IMG/VR virus record: IMGVR_UViG_3300021400_000621
Location: 1 to 64,000 of that record
Strand: one strand, 5' to 3'
Origin: a virus
Lineage: Duplodnaviria; Caudoviricetes
Length of the DNA: 64,000 nt
Of this stretch, positions 36,319 through 48,727 are shown piece by piece. The notes beneath the pieces were generated by a model. That model made no database searches. It saw only the letters and a list, made by a program, of their open reading frames with translations, and was not told the DNA's origin. A program made the position numbers and the translations under genes. Position 1 is the first letter of the stretch; every line of letters begins with the position of its first letter.

Positions 36319-38565
36319 ATGTATATAGTAAAAAGAGATGGACGTAAAGTTCCTTTTAACCAAAACAAAATTATTGATGCAATTCTCAGCGCATTTATAG
36401 AAATTGATGGCCAGGTATCAGAGTATGCCCTCATCAAAGCTGGTAATATTGCAGACTATATTCTTGAATATGCAAAGAAAGCAGACCATCTGCTTGATGT
36501 AGAAGAAGTTCAAGATATGGTAGAAACAGGACTTATGTCCACTAAAAGAAAAGATGTAGCTAAAGCATATATTAGTTACAGACAGGAAAGAACAAAAGAA
36601 CGTAATAGACGTGATGAAGTACAGCAACTAGTTCGTGAGAAACTTTATGCTCTGAATGTACAGAATCAAAATGCTAATGTCGATGAGCACTCATTCGGCG
36701 GCCGCAAAGGAGAAGTAGATTCAGTAGTTATGAAAGATATTGCTTTAAGTGATTTAATTTCACCAAAAGCAGTAAAAAATCATGTTGAAAATAGAGTTTA
36801 TATTCATGACCTTGATGCTTATGCAGTAGGTATGCACAACTGCTTATCTGTTCCTTTCGATAAAATTCTTGCTAATGGATTTTTTGATGGAAAACAAACA
36901 GATGTTCGTGGCGCTAATTCTGTAAATACTGCATTTCAACTTGTAGCTGTTGTATTCCAGCTTCAATCACTTCAGCAATTTGGTGGAGTATCTGCTACAC
37001 ACCTAGATTGGACAATGGTTCCATATGTAAGAAAGTCATTCTATAAGCATTATGCTGATGGATGTAAGTACATAGGCAATCTTGACGAGGATAATTTAGA
37101 TAAAATTATCACATATGCAAGAAATGAACAGTTAAGTATTGATGATGACTATTTCAAAGAAGATAGTAAAATTTATCAATATGCTCTTGATATGACAAAG
37201 AAGGAAGTACATCAAGCTGTTGAAGGTATGTATCATAACCTAAACACTCTTCAGAGCAGAAGTGGTAATCAGCTTCCTTTTACAAGTATTAACTATGGTA
37301 CTTGTACACTTCCAGAAGGTAGAATGGTAACTGAAGCACTACTTACGGTATCTATGGAAGGTGTTGGTAAACTTGGTCTTACTCCTATTTTCCCTTGTGG
37401 TATATTCCAGTATTGGAAAGGTGTAAATGATAAACCAGGTACACCGAATTATGACCTGTTCAAGATGGCACTCAAAAGTACATCTATGAGATTATATCCA
37501 AACTATGCTAATGTAGACTGGTCAGGTAATGCTGGGTATGATCCTAAGGACCCGAAAACATACTTCTCAACAATGGGTTGCAGAACTGCCAATGGATGGG
37601 ATATTAATGGATTCGGTCAACTAAAGGATGGTAGAGGAAATATCTGTCCAGTTACTATAATCATGCCAACTATTGCTATGGAAGCAAAAGAAGAAGCAGA
37701 AAATAGTGATGGTGTTGACATAATTGATGTATTTATGGAAAAGTTAGATAACGCAATTCATGATGCTAAAGATATTCTGATTGAAAGATTCGATTGGATT
37801 TGCAGTCAAGATGCGGCAAGTGCTAAATTTATGTGGATGAATGGCACTATGGAGGGATATGACCCTGAAGAAGGACCAAAGTCTGCACTTAAGCATGGTA
37901 CACTTGCTCTTGGTCAATTAGGATTAGCAGAAACTCTTCAAATCCTCATAGGCTGCGACCACACAGACGAGAGAGGAATGGAACTTGCAAAGCGTATAGA
38001 ACAACTGTTTAAAGACCGTTGTGCTCAGTTCAAAGAAGAGGAAAGACTTAACTTCGGTGTATATTATACTCCAGCCGAGAACCTCTGCTATACTGCGATG
38101 AAGAAGTTTAAGGCTAAGTATGGGGAGATTCCAAATGTCAGTGATAGAGAATATTTCACAAATTCGATGCATGTACCAGTCTGGAAAGAAATATCTCCAT
38201 TTGACAAAATTGATATTGAATCACAGCTTACTGGTTACAGTAGTGCTGGTTGTATTACTTATGTAGAACTCGACGGAGCAGTACAGCACAACTTAGATGC
38301 TTTAGAAACATTAGTAAATTATGCTATGGATAAGGATATTCCTTATTTTGCTATTAATATTCCAAATGACCAGTGCTTAGATTGCGGCTGGACTGGAGAA
38401 ATTAATGAAACATGCCCTAAGTGCGGTGGTAATCATATTCAAAGACTGAGAAGAGTTACAGGTTATTTAACTGGTAATTATACAACTGCATTTAATCTGG
38501 GTAAACAAGCTGAAGTTAAGGATAGATATAAGCATAGCAACAGACTAGTAAATTGGAGGCATTAA
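36319..38565 (+). CDS. nrdD: Anaerobic (class III) ribonucleoside-triphosphate reductase with ATP cone
   Basis: ATP cone KRDG, HNC, QFGG, GRGN, CLDC...CPKC, RRVTGYL glycyl-radical loop. Confidence 0.93.
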   Translation: MYIVKRDGRKVPFNQNKIIDAILSAFIEIDGQVSEYALIKAGNIADYILEYAKKADHLLDVEEVQDMVETGLMSTKRKDVAKAYISYRQERTKERNRRDEVQQLVREKLYALNVQNQNANVDEHSFGGRKGEVDSVVMKDIALSDLISPKAVKNHVENRVYIHDLDAYAVGMHNCLSVPFDKILANGFFDGKQTDVRGANSVNTAFQLVAVVFQLQSLQQFGGVSATHLDWTMVPYVRKSFYKHYADGCKYIGNLDEDNLDKIITYARNEQLSIDDDYFKEDSKIYQYALDMTKKEVHQAVEGMYHNLNTLQSRSGNQLPFTSINYGTCTLPEGRMVTEALLTVSMEGVGKLGLTPIFPCGIFQYWKGVNDKPGTPNYDLFKMALKSTSMRLYPNYANVDWSGNAGYDPKDPKTYFSTMGCRTANGWDINGFGQLKDGRGNICPVTIIMPTIAMEAKEEAENSDGVDIIDVFMEKLDNAIHDAKDILIERFDWICSQDAASAKFMWMNGTMEGYDPEEGPKSALKHGTLALGQLGLAETLQILIGCDHTDERGMELAKRIEQLFKDRCAQFKEEERLNFGVYYTPAENLCYTAMKKFKAKYGEIPNVSDREYFTNSMHVPVWKEISPFDKIDIESQLTGYSSAGCITYVELDGAVQHNLDALETLVNYAMDKDIPYFAINIPNDQCLDCGWTGEINETCPKCGGNHIQRLRRVTGYLTGNYTTAFNLGKQAEVKDRYKHSNRLVNWRH

Positions 38566-40453: not shown

Positions 40454-41449
40454 TTATCCGAATATTCCTCGATAACTATTTATCATAGAACTAACATCAC
40501 TCTTTGCATATATTCTAGTTGTATTAATATTTTCATGCCCAAGATAATCCTGTACCTGTTCCAATGGCATGCCATGTCTAAGTAAATATGTTGCTGTAGT
40601 ATGTCTAATCAAATGAGGATATACTCTTCTACCTATGTCTGCTCTTTCACCTAACTTGCGAATTATCTTTTCAAGTGCTTCTTTTTTAATTCTATGATAT
40701 GGTCGCCTATCACTAACAAACAGTGCTGGGTCATCATCCTCTCTAATAGCTAGATATTCCTGGATGGCCATCACCGCCGCCGCATTTAACAAGACTACCC
40801 TTTCTTTATTGCCTTTTCCAGTTACCTTTAATATTCCACGATTAAAATCTATATCTTTAACATCAATATTTACCACCTCGCTTACTCTACATCCCGTCGC
40901 AAAGAAGAACTCAAGTAATGCACGTTCCTTTGGCTTAACACATGCATACCGCAATTTTTCTAGTTCCATATCGGTCAGAGGTTCCCGCACATTTTTCTTA
41001 TATTTAATTGGCTCTATAGTTGCCATAGGGTTTGATTTAATCCTGCCGCAATCCGTCATATATCTAAAGAATCCATTTAGGATTACTCTCATTGTATCTT
41101 TTCTTCTCTTGCTTATATGTCTACGGCGTTCATAATCATCTAAAAAAGTAATTACATCCCATTCCGTTACATCTGGTAGTGCTTTTGGTATAGCTAAACA
41201 AAATGCTTTAAGTGTTAATGAGTATTGCCGCAGCGTTCCTTCAGATAGTCCCTTTGCTTTCTTTCTAACTAGATACTGTAATACTTCTGAGTAACAGTTA
41301 TCTACAGTACATAGGCTAGTTTCCTGTGGAGAAAAATTAAAATTATTTATTACTTCTTCTATTGCTTTATCTATTATAAGTAAATCTGTTGATTCAAAAT
41401 TATTAGATAATGATTTGAGTATTTCATCTCTTATTTCTCTTGTAGTCAT
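40454..41449 (-). CDS. XerC/D-like tyrosine recombinase (putative shufflon invertase)
   Basis: N-terminal SAM-like domain; TGCRVSE, GKGNKER, HLIRH, LGH, TTRIY catalytic residues all present. Confidence 0.92.
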   Translation of the reverse strand: MTTREIRDEILKSLSNNFESTDLLIIDKAIEEVINNFNFSPQETSLCTVDNCYSEVLQYLVRKKAKGLSEGTLRQYSLTLKAFCLAIPKALPDVTEWDVITFLDDYERRRHISKRRKDTMRVILNGFFRYMTDCGRIKSNPMATIEPIKYKKNVREPLTDMELEKLRYACVKPKERALLEFFFATGCRVSEVVNIDVKDIDFNRGILKVTGKGNKERVVLLNAAAVMAIQEYLAIREDDDPALFVSDRRPYHRIKKEALEKIIRKLGERADIGRRVYPHLIRHTTATYLLRHGMPLEQVQDYLGHENINTTRIYAKSDVSSMINSYRGIFG

Positions 41450-41537: not shown

Positions 41538-41553
41538 GTTAAGTAAATAATAA
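41538..41553 (+). repeat. Inversion site S1
   Basis: GTTAAGTAAATAATAA; perfect 16-bp inverted repeat with S2. Confidence 0.8.
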
Positions 41554-41905
41554 TTTTATAGCTAATCCTATTACTTTTTATGGTGCAAATGGAACAACTC
41601 CTGCTATTAATGCTTGGTATTTAGGTATGATAGTTTATATCTGTGGATTTGTTGAAAATGTAAGTACTGCAGCAAGCTCTGAAAAAATTATTGCAACTGT
41701 TAATCATTATAATACCATACCACATCCTAGGACTGTTATTAGAGTTCCAGGCAGATATGGAACAGCATACTATCCTGGAACTAATTGTTATACAGCAGTT
41801 ACAAGTCGAGACGGCCGTATAGATATAGTGATGACAAGTTCAACAAGCACTTCTAATGTGCAAGTTTATTTTGGAAGTGTTGTTTATTATGGTAGCATTG
41901 CCTAA
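41543..41905 (+). other. Silent tail-fibre tip cassette C1 (120 aa)
   Basis: TAA then VNNNFIANPITFYGANG...VYYGSIA; no RBS/start; extends tracked ORF 41627..41905. Confidence 0.75.
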
Positions 41906-41915
41906 AATAATCATT

Positions 41916-42248
41916 TTAATCAAAACGTAAGACTAATGTAAGACGTATATAATTTGTACCAGTATTATTAGCACAAATTGTATAAAAACGGTTTTGTTCC
42001 CCTGCTTGCGCATACCATAATGTCCCTCTACTACCAGCCATAGTATCATAGGTTTTTATGTCACAATATTGTACACCTGCAGGCTCCATTGGTCCAATAG
42101 CTAAACCATAAACACCTGCATTAGAATATGTGGCATATATAGAATATATTCCTGTATAGGGCCATGTAATAGAATATCTACTGCCCCATGAAGTGGTAGC
42201 AGTATATGAATACTGTGATGTCCATGTTGTTGTAAACTTATTATTTAC
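41916..42248 (-). other. Silent tail-fibre tip cassette C2 (110 aa, absent from ORF track)
   Basis: TAA then VNNKFTTTWTSQYSYTATTSWGSRYSITWPYTG...IRLTLVLRFD stop; open frame without a 5' start. Confidence 0.75.
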
Positions 42249-42253
42249 TTAAC
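42238..42253 (-). repeat. Inversion site S2
   Basis: Reverse complement GTTAAGTAAATAATAA. Confidence 0.8.
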
Positions 42254-42345
42254 CCACTTATTTAATTAACTTGTATAATTATACATATATAGCATCTTTG
42301 TTACTGCGGCAGGACCGCCGCCAAGACTATTAACTTAAATTGTCC

Positions 42346-42374
42346 TTGACTCTTGAAAAAATTTTTGCTACACT
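42346..42374 (+). promoter_or_regulatory. Sigma-A-type promoter of the RuvC-like gene
   Basis: TTGACT-17 nt-TACACT with TG. Confidence 0.6.
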
Positions 42375-42410
42375 GTAGTTAGATAGAATAAACAAAAAGA
42401 GGTAAATAAA

Positions 42411-42926
42411 ATGACAATTATGTCTTTAGATATATCAACTACATCAACAGGTATAGCAATATTTGATAATAATAAACTATTACTTGTAGAATGTATCGCA
42501 CCGACTGGCAATGTATGGAAGCGTATTCGCAAGATAACAAATAGAATAGAAGAATTGGTGGAACAATATAAGCCGCAGGCTATTATAGCAGAAGAACCAG
42601 AACCTGCATTTGTAAAGAATAATATAGATGTATATCGCAAATTAACAATAGCACATGGTGATATAACTATCATGTTAGATGAACATAAACTAGAAATGCA
42701 GCTGTGTACAAGTGCTCATTGGAGAAAAATGGTTGGAATTAAAACAGGTAGGGGGATAACAAGAGCTATGTTGAAACCAAAAGACATAGAAAAAGCGAAG
42801 GAATTATTCCCTAAGTTTGCGGCGGAGGTAAAACAGAATGATGACAAAGCCGATGCTATTTTAATTGGATATGCTTATTATCTTGAGCATGCAAAGAAAG
42901 AAGAATTAGAGTATAACTGGGAGTGA
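42411..42926 (+). CDS. RuvC-like Holliday junction resolvase
   Basis: LDISTTSTG, IIAEE, WRK..G, DD.ADAILIG RNase H-fold acidic residues. Confidence 0.85.
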   Translation: MTIMSLDISTTSTGIAIFDNNKLLLVECIAPTGNVWKRIRKITNRIEELVEQYKPQAIIAEEPEPAFVKNNIDVYRKLTIAHGDITIMLDEHKLEMQLCTSAHWRKMVGIKTGRGITRAMLKPKDIEKAKELFPKFAAEVKQNDDKADAILIGYAYYLEHAKKEELEYNWE

Positions 42927-42939
42927 CCTCCGGTAGGAA

Positions 42940-43016
42940 ACACGCGCGGGCGTAGGTGAATGACATCTTGTAATATCTAGAATAAGAAGTATGGAAGACA
43001 CGCCGCCGCGTGTCTT
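42940..43016. repeat. GC-stem hairpin element E1
   Basis: ACACGCGCGGGCG...CGCCGCCGCGTGT arms around TAGGTGA-N4-CATCTT-N4-TATCTAGA; alternative local stem AAGACACG/CGTGTCTT. Confidence 0.6.
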
Positions 43017-43040
43017 ATTTTAGTGAATTAAATGAACTTC

Positions 43041-43056
43041 GTTAGGTAAATAATAA
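43041..43056 (+). repeat. Inversion site S3
   Basis: GTTAGGTAAATAATAA. Confidence 0.78.
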
Positions 43057-43564
43057 TTCACAGACAATGAAAGAAAAATTATTTCTAGATGATTTTGCGT
43101 ATTTTTCTTTAAACAACGGAGTTACAATGCATCCAGCAGAAGGTGCAACAATTAGTAATAGTTCTAGCAATCCTGGAGGCATAACATATACTAGCTCTTA
43201 TGAAAATAATTTTATACATATTTATAACACAGGTGGAATACGTAATATGACTTCAAAAAATTTAGTGTTATTAGTGGCAATGCATATTAGCTATATAAAC
43301 TCAAGTTCTGCGGGAGATTATAGTATTGGAACATGGATTAAAAGACACACAGCAAGTGAAAGTACTTATCAAAATTATAAATATTTAGGTTTTACTTCCT
43401 CTAATACAGGCGTATATTGTATTGTTGCTGATACTGTCTATGTATCTATACCACCAGGAGGATATATAGCTATATTAGTTTATAATCAAACAAGTGGTAA
43501 AACTATAAAAACAGCTTCAAGTGGATGGGTAGATTTTATACCTGTATCTATGTATAATGAATAA
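43046..43564 (+). other. Silent tail-fibre tip cassette C3 (172 aa)
   Basis: TAG then VNNNSQT in frame with tracked ORF 43067..43564; beta-rich. Confidence 0.72.
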
Positions 43565-43567
43565 AAT

Positions 43568-43888
43568 TTAAAGAGCACTAGAAATAGTACCTAATATATA
43601 TCCGGCATTAACAGTTACAGCAATTTTTGCAGTTAAAGATTGACTAGAATTACGTATAGATATAGCAACTCCTTCTGAAGTAAAATTAGTACGATAAACA
43701 TAGCACCAACTACAATACTGACCTTGATTGCTAGCATTATTAATATCCCAATACCAAAGCATTCTACTATAGCTAGGATTGAGTGGTACAGGTACAGTAT
43801 ATATACCGATACCATTTGGAGCCAATGTTTGATTATCAAATAAGTAGGCATGGAATCTTATTAATTCTGGCGTAAAATTATTATTTAC
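43568..43888 (-). other. Silent tail-fibre tip cassette C4 (106 aa)
   Basis: VNNNFTPELIRFHAYLFDNQT in frame with tracked ORF 43568..43825. Confidence 0.72.
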
Positions 43889-43913
43889 TTTCCTATCATT
43901 TACTTAACTATTG
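43878..43913 (-). repeat. Inversion site S4 with tandem partial copy
   Basis: Minus strand CAATAGTTAAGTAAATGATAGGAAAGTAAATAATAA; the first 16 nt are identical to the S1 flank. Confidence 0.72.
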
Positions 43914-43958
43914 ATTTTCGTAAAAGATTTTTACAACCATTCGAGGCGAAGCCAAAAA

Positions 43959-43993
43959 AACGGGTGTTAAGCATTTTTAGCTTAACACCCGTT
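43959..43993 (-). terminator. Intrinsic terminator after xkdX-like gene
   Basis: AACGGGTGTTAAGC-7 nt-GCTTAACACCCGTT, with a minus-strand U tract. Confidence 0.85.
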
Positions 43994-44014
43994 AATCTAT
44001 CAATTATAAAATTA

Positions 44015-44164
44015 CTATGCTTCGTAAGGCTTTCCTGTAATTTCTGTAAACTCTGCTTCAGTAATTCCGAGATGTTTACCAACAACGGCTCTTACTCTCT
44101 CAATACTCCAGAGTCCTTTATCATAGAAACCTTTAATCTTTTCAAAATTTTTGCTATGATTCAT
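44015..44164 (-). CDS. XkdX-family small tail protein (49 aa, not in track)
   Basis: AAGGAGG RBS; MNHSKNFEKIKGFYDKGLWSIERVRAVVGKHLGITEAEFTEITGKPYEA. Confidence 0.8.
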   Translation of the reverse strand: MNHSKNFEKIKGFYDKGLWSIERVRAVVGKHLGITEAEFTEITGKPYEA

Positions 44165-44178
44165 AACATTCCTCCTTG

Positions 44179-44580
44179 TTACAGTTCAATATCAGACATA
44201 ATAGCAATGTACTCAATATCAGATGTGTTCTTTGCTGTCTGTTCTGCAAGACCTGGTTTAGCAAGTTCTACAAGAACAACATCACATTTGCTTTCTGTTG
44301 ATTCGCCTGTCTCTTCATCTACGCTTGTATCATATACATAGTCAAAGATTTTTTCAAGCTTTGCAACTACGCTATATCCAGTTACAATACGTAGAGTTTC
44401 TGTTTCAGTTTCATTTTTAATCTCAATACGAGCGATATTTGCGGCGTCACTAACAACGTCCTCAATCTCGCCCAGTTGGATTCCGTCAGCTTTGATCAGA
44501 GCGCGGAATACATCACTGTGAACGCTGAATCCACTTGGAACAACGTCATATTTAAAGTTTCCGAAAACAATTTTATTCAT
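44179..44580 (-). CDS. Tail-fibre-associated protein preceding XkdX
   Basis: C-terminal SDIEYIAIMSDIEL, typical of the gene upstream of xkdX. Confidence 0.65.
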   Translation of the reverse strand: MNKIVFGNFKYDVVPSGFSVHSDVFRALIKADGIQLGEIEDVVSDAANIARIEIKNETETETLRIVTGYSVVAKLEKIFDYVYDTSVDEETGESTESKCDVVLVELAKPGLAEQTAKNTSDIEYIAIMSDIEL

Positions 44581-44595
44581 ATTAAATCTCTCCTT

Positions 44596-44665
44596 TGCGG
44601 CGGCCTAGGTGACCACCATCTTTGTATATCTAGATAAAGCGGGATGTTTTTAACGACCTCCCGCA
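44596..44665. repeat. GC-stem hairpin element E2
   Basis: TGCGGCGG...TAGGTGA-N4-CATCTT-N4-TATCTAGATA...GGATGTTTTTAACG...CCCGCA, abutting the RBS of 44580. Confidence 0.65.
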
Positions 44666-44716
44666 ATTACAAACTTTTTATATATAAGTTTAAAAACGTA
44701 TCTATCTATTATTCCA

Positions 44717-45115
44717 CTAAATAATAAGACTCTCGACTACAATCATATTCCTTATGAATCCTTGGTATGGGGAAGTAGTTATTACTATACTGTGGGAAGT
44801 GCTTCAGTAAAGCAGGTTTACAATTTATTTTTAATTAATTTTATATTAACTATATCCCGTGAAATAGTAGATTTTTCTACCGTACAATTACTTAGATTAC
44901 CAACACACAGATTAAGTGGACCACAATTTTCTACTGTAATGGCTTATAGTAGTAGCAGTGGAACTGCTCCTAGTGTTTATCCATATGGTGGATCTGAACT
45001 GGCAGCAGGAGGCAGGACTTATTTAGCTCAATCTATAATGTATCATGTATATTCTGGATATAAACTTGGAATGATGTGTATTATAGTTGGAGAGCCTGGA
45101 TACGGATGGGATTAA
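44717..45115 (+). other. Silent cassette C5 (132 aa) starting at site S5 (core 44718..44727)
   Basis: LNNKTLDYNHIPYES in frame with tracked ORF 44762..45115; upstream in-frame stop, no ATG. Confidence 0.7.
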
Positions 45116-45127
45116 TTAATTTTATAT

Positions 45128-45955
45128 CTAGTCTTCAATCTGTTTATATAGAAATCTAACAGTAACTTTTTCTGTTCTTAGTGCAGAAGAATACATTCTG
45201 ATTGCGATTCCTCCACCTGCAATGTAATCACTATAATCCATAAACCAATTATTATATCTTGGATTAGATGATGTAACTGATACCATAAGCGGTGTGATAC
45301 CACCACTTACACCTAACTGACTTGGAGTTACAATTACCACTCTTACTGTATTTGCTTGAAGTGTATAATTTTCTGTAAACATCGCTAGTCTTACAGTATT
45401 AATAGAAAAGTTATTATTTAATGTACTTAATTGCTGAGCGATAGTACTTGTCGCGTCCGGTAGATCCGAAGCACTAGCATAACCGACTACATTAGCAAAA
45501 TAATCATTCAAAGCAGATTGGGAATATGTCTTATAGTCACTAGGACTTGCAACATCCTCAACACTAGATAAAAATACGTCTTTAAACTTGTTGTCTACTC
45601 TTTTTCTAAACCTATTGAATTTTGTCCACATACTAGATGTAACTTCTGTTGCATTAGTAACACGGACACTGGTGTCTAATAGTTCAGTTGATGTTTCACT
45701 ACTAGACGAATCAAAATTCTGTATACCACTTGAAACTGTGGTGTTACCAATGTTACCACCTGATGCAGTAACCTTGGTGTTGATCTGACTCTGTATTGGT
45801 GCGGCGGCGCTTGGTATATCGCCGAGCACAGTCTGGAGATCTTTAGTACTAGAGTCAGACATTTCTACATCTACATTTGAAGCATCAGCACCAATGGGTG
45901 TTTCTGTACCCCATATGCCGTCCTCAAACTGAGATACTGATTTAATTTTTGACAT
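45128..45955 (-). CDS. Tail fibre 2: constant N-terminus fused to cassette C6 at site S6 (core 45411..45420)
   Basis: Paralogue of 46469..47461 up to QLSTLNNN, unrelated afterwards. Confidence 0.8.
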   Translation of the reverse strand: MSKIKSVSQFEDGIWGTETPIGADASNVDVEMSDSSTKDLQTVLGDIPSAAAPIQSQINTKVTASGGNIGNTTVSSGIQNFDSSSSETSTELLDTSVRVTNATEVTSSMWTKFNRFRKRVDNKFKDVFLSSVEDVASPSDYKTYSQSALNDYFANVVGYASASDLPDATSTIAQQLSTLNNNFSINTVRLAMFTENYTLQANTVRVVIVTPSQLGVSGGITPLMVSVTSSNPRYNNWFMDYSDYIAGGGIAIRMYSSALRTEKVTVRFLYKQIED

Positions 45956-45977
45956 AATTTAATCTCTCCTTTTGTCT

Positions 45978-46030
45978 CGCGGCGGTCCCGCCGCAGGATA
46001 TGTAAGCGGTGCCCGGTGAAAGACACCGCG
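45978..46030. repeat. GC-rich hairpin E5 upstream of tail fibre 2 RBS
   Basis: GCGGCGG-TC-CCGCCGC plus GCGGTG...CACCGC; lacks the CTAGAT core. Confidence 0.5.
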
Positions 46031-46070
46031 GAATTGGTTTCATTAAAATTGGGTTTCATCTGTTATTTTA

Positions 46071-46472
46071 CTAAATAATAAAACTTCTAATGCTACAACC
46101 TCTAAAGCAGGATTAATGTCTGCTGCTGATAAAACTAAACTTAATGTAGTAAATTCTGATTATAAAACTGCTTATAAAGAAGTATACATTGCAGCTAATA
46201 ATTCTGGAAATTTAGCACAATTATCATTAACAGCTGGCATATGGCTAATAATAGGATTTGTAGATTTTAATGCTACTGTAAATCAATATAATGTATCCAT
46301 AACTGGACCTAATAATTTTTTACATACTGTTAGAGCTTGGGGAGCGAATGGAGGCGGAACTAATAATGTAATAGTACATAGAGTGACAGCAGGAACCTTT
46401 ACATTAGTTTGTTGGACACCAACTGCTGCAACTGCCAGAGGTACTATGTATGCTATTAAATTAGCTAGCTAA
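46071..46472 (+). other. Silent cassette C7 (133 aa) starting at site S7 (core 46072..46081)
   Basis: LNNKTSNATTSKAGLMSAADKTKL fibre motif in frame with tracked ORF 46116..46472. Confidence 0.75.
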
Positions 46473-47461
46473 TTATATATATAAAAACCACTTGCTTTTA
46501 ACCATCCCCAATAATCACTGGCACTTGTAGTTTTGCCACTTTTAGTGACAAAAAATACTCTACTAGCTCCAGAGGTATTTGTTAGTCTAAATTGTGGACT
46601 TGTAGTAGAATAAACATCTTCTATAATTCCTCTACCGGAATCATGATAAGCAGTCCCCAAACTAGTAGTAGTTACTAACATTGTACATTCTCCTATAGTA
46701 ATACCTCCAGTTGCAATAGAAGAATATGATGGTTGAGGGTTAGGCATTGTGCAATTAGCATATTCTCCAGCTTCTGAAACATGTGCTTTAATAGTTATGC
46801 TCCATAATATTAATTTTGCTGCCGGAAACCAAATATAATTACCATAACGATAGTCATAACTTGCTGACATTGAACGATTTTTTGTCCCGGCCATTAAAAC
46901 AGGAACATATGTACTATTAATCGGTATATTATTATTTAATGTACTTAATTGGTCTGCTACTGAACCAACAGTAGCTACGTCCGCATCTGTTTTATATCCA
47001 ATTACATCAGCAAAATAACTATTCAATGCTGCTTGAGAGTACGTTTTAGTATCACTTGGCTCAAGCACATCCTCAACAGAACTAATTAAAAAGTTACTAA
47101 ATTTATTTGAAACCCTTTTTCTAAACATATTAAATTTTGACCACATAGTAGTCTGACTTTCACCTGCCGCAACTACTACGTCTGTGCCGTCAATATCCTC
47201 TGATGTGTCTGTCTCTGAAGCAGGATCAAGGACACTGACCACAGTATCTTTTATATCTCCACCGCTGGCATTTACTTTACCAGTCAGTTGTGTTTTCATA
47301 CTAGGATCGGAAACTGAAACATTACCAAGTACTGATTGTAAATCTTTAGTAGAAGTAGAATCACTTAAAGCTACATCTACATTACTTGCATCAGCACCAA
47401 TAGGAGTTCCATTTGCCCAGCTTCCGTTATTATATTCATAAACTTCTTTAATTTTTGGCAT
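46469..47461 (-). CDS. Tail fibre 1: constant N-terminus fused to cassette C8 at site S8 (core 46929..46938)
   Basis: Shares a 23-bp junction CAATTAAGTACATTAAATAATAA with tail fibre 2. Confidence 0.8.
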   Translation of the reverse strand: MPKIKEVYEYNNGSWANGTPIGADASNVDVALSDSTSTKDLQSVLGNVSVSDPSMKTQLTGKVNASGGDIKDTVVSVLDPASETDTSEDIDGTDVVVAAGESQTTMWSKFNMFRKRVSNKFSNFLISSVEDVLEPSDTKTYSQAALNSYFADVIGYKTDADVATVGSVADQLSTLNNNIPINSTYVPVLMAGTKNRSMSASYDYRYGNYIWFPAAKLILWSITIKAHVSEAGEYANCTMPNPQPSYSSIATGGITIGECTMLVTTTSLGTAYHDSGRGIIEDVYSTTSPQFRLTNTSGASRVFFVTKSGKTTSASDYWGWLKASGFYIYN

Positions 47462-47473
47462 TTAATGGCCTCC

Positions 47474-48727
47474 TCATCTTAATTCTAAGTAACCGTTTTC
47501 ACCTGCATGGGCTTTAGCACCAGTCACATCAGTTGCATCATAATTAGGTAATAATTCATCATCAGTAAATACATCAGTAGCAGTACTAATCTTACTAACG
47601 TCCCAAAGACTTGAAATATAAATATGCTCTAAACTAGAACAACCACTAAATAAATCATTAGCACTAACTGAAGTTGCATCAAATTTAAATTCCCAACTAC
47701 GTAAATCTAACGATACCAGACTAGTACAATCAGCAAACATACCTTCAACAGTGGTAGCTGCAATAGGCATTATTGTAGCTAAACTTAATGCGGTAAGTGC
47801 ATTACAACCACTAAACATTTGATACATATCTGCAACTCTGCTTGTATTAAAACTTGTTAAATCAAAAGAAGTACAAGCACGGCAAGTATAAAACATTCGT
47901 CTCATTGTAGTTACTTTAGATGTATCAAAACTGGTTAAACTCAGTGATGTTAAACTAGTACATAAGTTAAACATTAATGCCATTGATGTAGCATTACTAG
48001 TAATAAAATTACCTAATGTTAATGTAGCTAAATCATAACATTCACTAAACATACCTGCAAATGTAATTACATTACTTGTATCAAACATAGATACATCAAG
48101 AGAGGCTAAAGTCATACAAGAATCAAACATATATGACATATTTGTTACTGCGGCGGTGTTGAAATTTGTTAACACACAATTATATAGTGCAGTACATCCA
48201 CTAAACATATATGACATATCAGTTACTGCGGCGGTATTATGAGCCGTCATGATAACTGAACCCAGTGCTGCACAACCTTTAAACATATGTGCAAAACTAG
48301 TACATTTTGATGTATCTAATCTATCTAAATTATTAATGGCAGTCAGATTCTCACATCCATCAAACCAATATGCTGTAGATACTGGTTGAATCTCACCCAT
48401 AAAGTTTACAGTTGTAATATTGGCAACACGACTAGTCCATGGGATGTCCGTAGATGCGGCCGCCGCAATACTTTCAACTCCTTTATAATAAGTCTTCGAA
48501 CCAACGACTTGACCATTATTATATTTATTCTTTTCTAATCTAATAAAATTTAAACTTGTATCTGAAGTATCATAATAAGCATATGCTTCAGTATCTACAT
48601 ATGCATCATCACTTATCTTAAAACAAGTAGTACCATCTGATTTGGTAGTATAATCATTCAAAGAACCTTTATAATAGTGTCTATTTAAAAGTTCATTTAC
48701 TTTTGCAATATCTGAACTTATACTCAT
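47474..48727 (-). CDS. BspA/DUF285-type leucine-rich-repeat protein
   Basis: About nine 25-26 aa repeats of the form (F/L)(D/N)TS.VT.M..MF..C..L..L. Confidence 0.85.
   Translation of the reverse strand: MSISSDIAKVNELLNRHYYKGSLNDYTTKSDGTTCFKISDDAYVDTEAYAYYDTSDTSLNFIRLEKNKYNNGQVVGSKTYYKGVESIAAAASTDIPWTSRVANITTVNFMGEIQPVSTAYWFDGCENLTAINNLDRLDTSKCTSFAHMFKGCAALGSVIMTAHNTAAVTDMSYMFSGCTALYNCVLTNFNTAAVTNMSYMFDSCMTLASLDVSMFDTSNVITFAGMFSECYDLATLTLGNFITSNATSMALMFNLCTSLTSLSLTSFDTSKVTTMRRMFYTCRACTSFDLTSFNTSRVADMYQMFSGCNALTALSLATIMPIAATTVEGMFADCTSLVSLDLRSWEFKFDATSVSANDLFSGCSSLEHIYISSLWDVSKISTATDVFTDDELLPNYDATDVTGAKAHAGENGYLELR

What the first reader, a model, noticed from the sequence alone, without database searches (positions are those of the whole stretch)
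42254..47461. Two expression loci and passenger genes nested inside the shufflon
Seen: two paralogous constant regions (45955 and 47461 starts; shared PIGADASNVDV, MWxKFNxFRKRV, YSQxALNxYFA, 23-bp identical junction) draw on one cassette pool. The spacers between pairs carry whole genes: a RuvC-like resolvase with its own promoter on the opposite strand, XkdX plus partner, and constant region 2 with its leader hairpin. Inference: two fibres can be varied combinatorially, long inversions would flip whole transcription units, and the resolvase may process Holliday intermediates of inversion. This goes beyond the single-acceptor design of classical shufflons.
Basis: partly seen in the sequence, partly recalled or inferred. 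Interest (0 to 1): 0.72.

Follow-up and report, generated by a model that had tools for sequence, protein, structure and literature searches.

The report
Two-acceptor phage tail-fibre shufflon
A large phage, apparently from gut or rumen samples, keeps eight swappable tips for two related tail-fibre genes, stored in pairs with ordinary genes lying between them. This is a more elaborate version of a known DNA-flipping host-range switch, and the neighbouring RuvC gene is a bystander rather than a helper.

Summary
Window 41544-46938 holds eight crossover sites with the exact core TAAATAATAA, strictly alternating in orientation. They bound four tail-to-tail pairs of C-terminal cassettes. All eight cassettes are open in the frame set by the core. 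A Xer-like tyrosine recombinase (40454-41449) lies beside them.

Two paralogous fibre genes (46469-47461 and 45128-45955) both carry the site inside an identical 23-bp junction. Both are under purifying selection.

The three spacers hold whole units:
- a RuvC-like gene
- XkdX plus its partner
- the second fibre gene's 5' part with its leader

Metagenomic relatives show the same constant parts joined to dozens of different tips. At least 11 tip families occur on both acceptors, and one 658-bp pair is 100% identical in either slot. Inversions ending exactly at the cores span the RuvC unit.

- RuvC sits at the same place in relatives with no shufflon, and the window's RuvC orientation is native to its backbone.
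- No assembly shows the second fibre gene or the XkdX unit flipped.

Verdict: a real shufflon and a new variant of a known kind (Rin-type). This scan has already noted single-acceptor and dispersed tyrosine-recombinase fibre shufflons on other DNA.

The parts
40454..41449 (-). Xer-like tyrosine recombinase, the presumed invertase
   Evidence: Pfam PF00589 E 9.9e-41. NCBIfam XerA-type model 229 bits, over the cut-off of 220. It is the only tyrosine recombinase in the 89-kb record.
41544..41905 (+). Site 1 (core 41544-41553) and silent cassette A (119 aa)
   Evidence: Core match and open in-frame reading.
41916..42247 (-). Silent cassette B (109 aa) and site 2 (core 42238-42247)
42248..43046 (+). 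Spacer 1. RuvC-like resolvase gene 42411-42926, promoter-like match 42346-42374, terminator-like hairpin 42995-43016.
   Evidence: It is a backbone gene: present at this place in shufflon-free relatives.
43047..43564 (+). Site 3 (core 43047-43056) and silent cassette C (171 aa)
43568..43887 (-). Silent cassette D (105 aa) and site 4 (core 43878-43887)
43888..44717 (-). Spacer 2. Terminator-like hairpin 43959-43993, XkdX 44015-44164, 133-aa partner 44179-44580, GC-rich element 44597-44646 upstream of the partner.
   Evidence: PF09693 E 6e-15; phrog_12931; terminator. The unit has the same order and orientation in all relatives.
44718..45115 (+). Site 5 (core 44718-44727) and silent cassette E (131 aa)
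45128..45955 (-). Nested acceptor fibre gene ('const1' in my scripts), 275 aa. Constant part 45421-45955, site 6 core 45411-45420, currently joined to cassette F (45128-45420).
   Evidence: Orthologues carry many different tips. dN/dS 0.12-0.15.
45956..46071 (-). Leader of the nested acceptor with two GC-rich hairpins. Together with the constant part it forms spacer 3.
   Evidence: Fold -31.6 kcal/mol, z -2.1. No Rfam family. About 97% conserved in L008.
46072..46472 (+). Site 7 (core 46072-46081) and silent cassette G (132 aa)
   Evidence: The G/H pair sits in the other acceptor's slot in relative L049.
46469..47461 (-). Upstream, fixed acceptor fibre gene ('const2' in my scripts), 330 aa. 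Constant part 46939-47461, site 8 core 46929-46938, currently joined to cassette H (46469-46938).
   Evidence: 35 proteins whose N-terminal part is 88-100% identical (20 of them at 94-100%) carry about 30 different C-termini. dN/dS 0.15-0.22.

Best explanation
This is a tyrosine-recombinase multiple-inversion system (a shufflon) that diversifies the receptor-binding tips of two tandem, paralogous tail-fibre or baseplate-fibre genes of a roughly 130-kb phage.

Each fibre gene ends its constant part at ...QLSTLNN. That motif is encoded by a crossover site with a semi-conserved arm and the 10-bp core TAAATAATAA. Eight start-less tips are stored as four tail-to-tail pairs, each pair flanked by inward-pointing sites. 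The adjacent Xer-like recombinase is inferred to synapse two oppositely oriented sites and exchange strands within the core. This inverts the DNA in between and joins a new tip in frame.

The pairs sit in two clusters. One is beside the fibre genes. The other is around RuvC, at the junction of the late and early gene blocks. As a result three functional units lie between sites: the second acceptor with its leader, partner-XkdX, and RuvC.

On paper, inversions give 18,432 arrangements and 56 combinations of expressed tips. In the assemblies the pairs are permuted among all slots, while the acceptor and XkdX units keep their native order and orientation. This suggests that large inversions are followed by re-inversion of the spacer, or that such isomers are selected.

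RuvC, XkdX and the partner are ordinary backbone genes caught between cassette clusters. They are not parts of the switch.

What is shown: the sites, the reading frames, the protein families, selection on both acceptors, and comparative isomers. What is inferred: catalysis by this recombinase, expression of both fibres, and an effect on host range.
For: - Sites and frames.
- Recombinase family. It is the only one in the record.
- Tips are fibre domains. In relatives the variable part matches Pfam Gp10_C (E 2.8e-22, starting at residue 177, right at the junction) and Gp53-like_C. The genes lie among large tail genes and are followed by XkdX.
- Constant parts carry many tips. N-termini 94-100% identical carry different C-termini, and at least 11 tip families occur on both acceptor types.
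- Pairs move between slots. The TYVCSFG/NKASVQ pair (658 bp) is 100% identical in the nested-acceptor slot of L034 and the upstream-acceptor slot of L044. The window's own H/G pair (847 bp) is 95.7% identical to the pair in the nested-acceptor slot of L049, equal to backbone identity.
- Distal cassettes reach the acceptors. Six families seen silent next to RuvC or the recombinase occur fused to acceptors elsewhere.
- Inversions occur at the cores. L034 and L035 are 100% identical over 16,220 bp up to a core, then the two pairs around RuvC are swapped and inverted. L008 16606-17245 equals L034 17479-16829 inverted, with ends at the cores.
- Both acceptors are under purifying selection.
- State count.
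Against: - No reads were available, so no inversion was seen inside one population. Assemblies of mixed populations can be chimeric.
- Several relatives with intact sites and silent cassettes (L010, L032, L036, L040, L041) have no recombinase gene within 10 kb. Either the gene lies elsewhere, it was lost, or exchange does not need it in cis.
- Pair transfer between slots could also arise by recombination between co-infecting genomes rather than by intramolecular inversion.
- Expression of the nested acceptor from its own leader is not shown.
Confidence: 0.8

Rival explanations
1. Only local flips of single pairs happen within a genome. The appearance of the same tips on both acceptors and in distal slots comes from exchange of whole pairs between co-infecting related phages. 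That exchange could be intermolecular site-specific or homologous double crossover, so spacers are never inverted in viable phage.
For: - The nested acceptor and the XkdX unit are in native order and orientation in all assemblies.
- Pairs often appear in the other slot in the same orientation.
- Cassette content differs almost completely between backbones that are 96% identical, such as the window and L049 or L046.
- The number of pairs varies (2, 4 or 5), as unequal intermolecular exchange would give.
Against: - The L034/L035 junctions in a 100%-identical background join a site left of RuvC to a cassette right of it in inverted orientation.
- The RuvC spacer is inverted exactly core to core between L008 and L034.
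- One pair is found reversed in the other slot: L036 versus L044, 97.4% identity.
Confidence: 0.15
2. The RuvC-like resolvase is a functional accessory of the shufflon. It would resolve Holliday intermediates of inversion, and its placement between the pairs would reflect that role.
For: - In every recombinase-bearing relative examined, a cassette cluster abuts RuvC.
- The protein keeps RuvC-type acidic motifs and matches RuvC models.
Against: - RuvC occupies the same position, between the late block and dUTPase, in relatives with no sites, no silent cassettes and no recombinase: L037, L019 and L013.
- The window's RuvC and its flank are 90-95% identical in nucleotides to shufflon-free L019, in the same orientation.
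- From established knowledge, tyrosine recombinases form and resolve their own Holliday intermediate, and phage RuvC-like enzymes debranch DNA before packaging.
Confidence: 0.05
3. The array is a fossil. The cassettes and sites are relics that no longer recombine.
For: Some relatives lack the recombinase nearby. A few silent cassettes are truncated to 13-59 aa.
Against: - In the window all eight cores are exact, all eight cassettes are open, and the recombinase is intact.
- Rearranged isomers exist between genomes with 100% identical flanks.
Confidence: 0.05

Closest known systems
Rin shufflon of Bifidobacterium breve/longum prophages (Mavrich et al. 2018, PMC6109161)
   Same: It is phage-encoded and has an adjacent tyrosine-family invertase. 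Short asymmetric repeats (11 bp there, a 10-bp core here) precede each start-less variable 3' segment. A constant 5' receptor-binding-protein part is joined to dissimilar tips, and inversions were seen by comparing genomes.
   Different: Rin has one constant gene and five variable segments in one compact block, with no other genes inside. Here there are two paralogous acceptors, eight tips in two clusters, three functional units between the pairs, and a Xer-like enzyme in a large phage with no integration function identified in the record (not tested).
BV01-like Phocaeicola phage tail-fibre shufflon (PMC13596623, 2026 preprint)
   Same: A recombinase-flanked multi-cassette inversion region overlaps the distal end of a tail-fibre gene. 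It has 10-bp directional motifs with short extensions, and all configurations were detected in reads.
   Different: It has a single fibre gene, three cassettes within 1.7 kb and no nested genes.
R64/IncI shufflon (Rci recombinase, sfx sites, pilV); from my own knowledge plus mentions in PMC9881135
   Same: It is a multiple-inversion system driven by a tyrosine recombinase. Its sites are asymmetric with one conserved arm. One constant 5' part is joined to alternative 3' ends.
   Different: It is a plasmid pilus adhesin system with a single acceptor and no passenger genes. No Rci-specific relationship was found; the best NCBIfam model is XerA/XerC/XerD-like.
Min of p15B, Gin of Mu and Cin of P1 (serine invertases); as summarised in PMC6109161
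   Same: They vary tail-fibre tips by inversion. Min has several crossover sites and many isomers. Mu and P1 flip whole accessory genes (U/U') along with the tip.
   Different: They use serine recombinases with enhancer/Fis-dependent mechanisms and have a single constant fibre part.
Mycoplasma pulmonis hsd loci and the Campylobacter fetus sap locus (from my own knowledge, not checked here)
   Same: Inversions between paralogous genes enclose and flip complete unrelated genes (hsdM/hsdR; sapCDEF). More than one full-length paralogue takes part.
   Different: They are cellular restriction or S-layer systems. The sap system depends on RecA. They are not phage fibre tips.

Membership tests
Shufflon (tyrosine-recombinase multiple-inversion system) | Tyrosine recombinase encoded beside the invertible DNA | tested here: met
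   PF00589 E 9.9e-41; Xer-type NCBIfam model over the cut-off. The gene is 95 bp from site 1.
Shufflon (tyrosine-recombinase multiple-inversion system) | Three or more short conserved crossover sites in both orientations separating DNA segments | tested here: met
   Eight exact 10-bp cores, four in each orientation, strictly alternating. Enrichment is 11 observed against 1.6 expected.
Shufflon (tyrosine-recombinase multiple-inversion system) | A constant 5' gene part joined in frame to alternative 3' segments | tested here: met
   All 8 cassettes are open in the core's frame. Identical N-termini carry about 30 different C-termini in metagenomes.
Shufflon (tyrosine-recombinase multiple-inversion system) | Inversion actually occurs at the sites | tested here: inconclusive
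   The evidence is comparative only: L034/L035, L008/L034, and pair transfers. No reads from one population were available. Contig ends 100-250 bp past a core in several short contigs are suggestive.
Shufflon (tyrosine-recombinase multiple-inversion system) | Single acceptor gene (classical design) | tested here: not met
   There are two acceptors with an identical 23-bp junction. Both are conserved and under purifying selection. Hence this is a variant.
Rci/sfx family in the strict sense | Recombinase orthologous to Rci | tested here: inconclusive
   The best models are XerA/XerD/XerC-like. The FimB/E-type invertase models match only weakly. No Rci-specific model appeared, and I do not know whether the library holds one.
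Serine-invertase fibre switches (Gin/Cin/Min) | Serine recombinase (resolvase/invertase family) | tested here: not met
   The adjacent enzyme is a tyrosine recombinase. No resolvase-family hit appeared among the ORFs scanned in 40.4-52.3 kb.
RuvC-like Holliday junction resolvase (spacer gene) | Match to RuvC models with the acidic catalytic motifs retained | tested here: met
   PF02075 24.0 bits against a cut-off of 22.2; phrog_159 E 1.7e-19. The N-terminal LDIS, EEPE and DKADA motifs are visible in the translation. There is no sequence hit to solved structures.
Phage_XkdX (spacer gene) | Match to PF09693 over the full domain | tested here: met
   E 6e-15, profile positions 1-40 of 40.

The most novel reading that the evidence does not exclude
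The array may work as a distributed, two-acceptor shufflon in which the second acceptor, carrying its own leader, is itself a movable spacer. Each virion population could then display up to 56 pairings of two different fibre tips. In addition, the recombinase may trade whole cassette pairs between co-infecting genomes. That would maintain an integron-like pan-genomic pool (at least 67 tip families among 114 cassettes sampled here), which would explain the near-complete turnover of cassettes between backbones that are 96% identical.
Probability: 0.3. Interest if true: 0.75.

Novelty: new variant of a known kind. Interest (0 to 1): 0.55.

Why it matters
Phage host range is set largely by fibre tips. 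Known phage shufflons vary one fibre.

Here two fibres share one library, so specificities could be combined rather than merely switched. The library is also exchanged quickly among related phages.

The layout offers a natural test of whether large programmed inversions that flip working genes are tolerated, corrected or selected against. In every assembly the cassette pairs are permuted while the gene-bearing spacers stay in place.

The layout also warns annotators in two ways. Start-less ORFs on both sides of RuvC are stored fibre tips. Contigs of such phages break or become chimeric at the sites.

Tried and rejected
- **Phage GenBank collection:** a megablast of the 8.4-kb region found no match.
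- **IMG/VR with a single protein:** nothing found. An alignment query found only three distant loci.
- **Whole-genome search of relatives for a second recombinase:** the records are not held. The question why some site-bearing relatives lack a nearby recombinase therefore stays open.
- **The 3-kb gene block found in many relatives (p142 to p86):** absent from the whole 89-kb record. I first read this as a deletion. It is explained instead by the L019-type backbone, which also lacks the block.
- **RuvC orientation in the window as proof of a flip:** I first took it that way, by comparison with L008 and L010. I rejected this after L019 showed the same orientation without any sites.
- **Window cassettes against Pfam:** no significant family. 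Fibre-tip domains were seen only on relatives' cassettes.
- **RuvC against solved structures by sequence:** no hit.
- **Rfam on 40-49 kb:** nothing.
- **Promoter scan:** matches are no more frequent than chance (35 against 30.9), so promoter claims stay weak.
- **ESM Atlas on the constant part:** only weak fibre-like leads, TM below 0.4.
- **Not run:** no structure prediction and no complex prediction.
Full report
**Setting.** The window is the first 64 kb of an 89-kb IMG/VR virus record estimated to be 68% complete. The DNA is about 34% G+C. Close relatives are 127-133-kb contigs from ENA, Logan and JGI metagenome assemblies, apparently gut or rumen samples. The finding lies where a rightward early/DNA-metabolism block (NrdD, dUTPase) meets a leftward late block of large tail proteins and a DUF285 repeat protein.

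**Naming.** My scripts label the gene at 46469-47461 'const2' and the gene at 45128-45955 'const1'. Here I call them the upstream acceptor and the nested acceptor. 'WIN' in the scripts is the reverse complement of the window region, so the fibre genes read forward.

**Observation.**
- The 10-bp core TAAATAATAA occurs eight times between 41544 and 46938, with orientation +,-,+,-,+,-,+,-. The window holds 11 copies against 1.6 expected, and no shuffle reaches 11.
- Reading from each core in the frame AAT-AAT-AAx gives eight open peptides of 96-171 aa. At most 11% of all positions in this window are followed by 96 or more open codons, so eight of eight has an upper-bound chance of about 2e-8.
- The cassettes form four tail-to-tail pairs: A/B, C/D, E/F and G/H.
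- Cassettes F and H are the current 3' ends of the two intact genes 45128-45955 and 46469-47461.
- A 331-aa Xer-like tyrosine recombinase lies 95 bp from site 1. It is the only one in the record.

**Are these fibre genes?** The window's own cassettes match no Pfam family. In relatives, however, the variable part after the junction matches Gp10_C (E 2.8e-22, starting at residue 177, exactly at the junction) and Gp53-like_C tail-fibre domains. The genes follow large tail proteins and precede XkdX, which is the usual position of fibre genes in phages of Bacillota (my own knowledge). I therefore accept them as receptor-binding fibre or baseplate-fibre proteins. The crossover site sits at a domain boundary.

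**One pool for two acceptors.**
- A search with the upstream acceptor's first 180 residues found 103 proteins. Thirty-five have N-terminal parts 88-100% identical (20 of them at 94-100%) but about 30 different C-termini starting right after ...LSTLNN. A second group, about 52% identical, consists of orthologues of the nested acceptor and behaves the same way.
- I clustered 114 cassettes from these proteins and from ten loci. At least 11 families occur on both acceptor types. Six families seen silent beside RuvC or the recombinase in one genome are fused to an acceptor in another.
- At the DNA level, the 658-bp pair TYVCSFG/NKASVQ is 100% identical in the nested-acceptor slot of L034 and the upstream-acceptor slot of L044. 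The flanking constant parts are 96.9-99.1% identical.
- The window's own G/H pair (847 bp) sits in the nested-acceptor slot of L049 at 95.7% identity, the same as the backbone.
- Another pair is found reversed in the other slot at 97.4% identity.
- Both constant parts are under purifying selection, with dN/dS 0.12-0.22. Neither is a pseudogene.

**Do inversions reach beyond single pairs?** Yes, in relatives.
- L034 and L035 come from different assemblies and are 100% identical over 16,220 bp, up to and including a core. After that, L035 carries the pair that in L034 lies on the far side of RuvC, in inverted orientation. The RuvC spacer then follows in unchanged orientation. The shortest path is an inversion across pair-RuvC-pair followed by re-inversion of the RuvC spacer.
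- L008 16606-17245 equals L034 17479-16829 inverted, and the ends fall on the cores.
- Several short contigs stop 100-250 bp past a core. That is what assembly-graph branching in mixed populations would give. This is suggestive only.

**What is not supported.**
- *RuvC as a helper.* RuvC sits between the late block and dUTPase in L037, which has no sites, no silent cassettes and no recombinase, and whose acceptor motif is changed to LTTLTNG. The same holds for single-fibre relatives L019 and L013.
- *The window's RuvC orientation as evidence of a flip.* L019 matches the window at 90% (RuvC) to 95.5% (dUTPase side) nucleotide identity, has RuvC in the same orientation, and also lacks the 3-kb block found in L008-type genomes. 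The window is therefore an L019-type right half with pair C/D inserted on one side of RuvC, and pair A/B plus the recombinase inserted on the other side. Its RuvC orientation is native. Close relatives L049 and L046 share it.
- *A dedicated resolvase.* Tyrosine recombinases resolve their own Holliday intermediate (established knowledge), so none is needed.
- *Flipping of the other two units.* In about 14 assemblies the nested acceptor and the XkdX unit are never inverted or displaced.

**Arrangement count.** A breadth-first enumeration gives 18,432 reachable arrangements and 56 expressed tip pairings. Only 768 arrangements (4%) keep the nested acceptor and the XkdX unit native. The assemblies thus show permuted pairs but fixed spacers. 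The cause could be selection, two-step swaps, or intermolecular exchange of pairs.

**Wider family.**
- The number of pairs varies: two (L010, L036), four (the window, L049, L034) and five (L046).
- A distant 133.6-kb relative, L014, has the core TAAATAGTAA and one acceptor with one pair beside it. A second pair lies 5 kb away, beyond the recombinase, partner, XkdX, four more genes and RuvC. Gene blocks nested between cassette clusters are therefore an old feature of this phage group. The second acceptor is the more specific novelty.
- Some site-bearing relatives have no recombinase within 10 kb. I could not scan their whole contigs.

**Comparison with known systems.** Phage tail-fibre shufflons driven by tyrosine recombinases are published: Rin in Bifidobacterium prophages and a BV01-like Phocaeicola phage. 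Serine-invertase systems (Min, Gin, Cin) and the plasmid R64 shufflon are classical. All of these have one acceptor. My literature searches found no description of two acceptors sharing a pool. Earlier notes of this scan report single-acceptor and dispersed tyrosine-recombinase fibre shufflons in other phages, so the general kind is recurrent.

**Verdict.** The feature is real and well supported by comparative data. It is a new variant of a known kind. The proposed role for RuvC should be dropped.

Noticed in passing
window 42944-42993, 44597-44646, 58213-58270: A repeated GC-rich element with a shared TATCTAGA-type core lies just upstream of late-gene ribosome-binding sites. One copy sits behind RuvC, pointing antisense into it. 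No Rfam family matches in 40-49 kb.
   Followed up: partly
window 47474-48727: The DUF285 protein gene upstream of the fibre genes contains direct DNA repeats spaced at multiples of 78 bp (26-residue repeat units).
   Followed up: no
L008:13177-16196, and the same block in L010, L032, L034, L036, L037, L040, L041: A block of about 3 kb between XkdX and RuvC is absent from the window's whole 89-kb record and from L019, L049 and L046. It encodes two Gln/Asn-rich proteins, a Gly-rich membrane-like protein, a BclA_C-like protein, a 186-aa protein and a DUF551 protein. It marks two backbone types within this phage group.
   Followed up: partly
L019:12290-12340 versus window 43888-43915: Shufflon-free L019 has a sequence homologous to the degenerate half-site that precedes site 4 in the window. 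It lies exactly where the C/D pair is inserted in the window, so it may be a proto-site used for cassette capture.
   Followed up: no
L046:14989-15928: In L046 a fifth cassette pair separates RuvC from the 155-bp piece that carries the promoter-like match upstream of RuvC in the window. In L008 the same piece lies upstream of a DUF551 gene. That piece may therefore not be RuvC's promoter.
   Followed up: partly
L010:18527-20741; L036:18682-20837; window 36319-38565: The anaerobic ribonucleotide reductase gene (NrdD) is intact in the window (748 aa). In relatives it is interrupted or followed by HNH (L010) or GIY-YIG (L036) endonuclease genes, a homing-endonuclease polymorphism.
   Followed up: no
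L010, L032, L036, L040, L041 (loci of relatives): These relatives keep exact sites and open silent cassettes but have no tyrosine recombinase between RuvC and dUTPase or anywhere within 10 kb. L041 even has a distal pair beside RuvC. Where their recombinase is, or whether they are frozen, is unexplained.
   Followed up: partly
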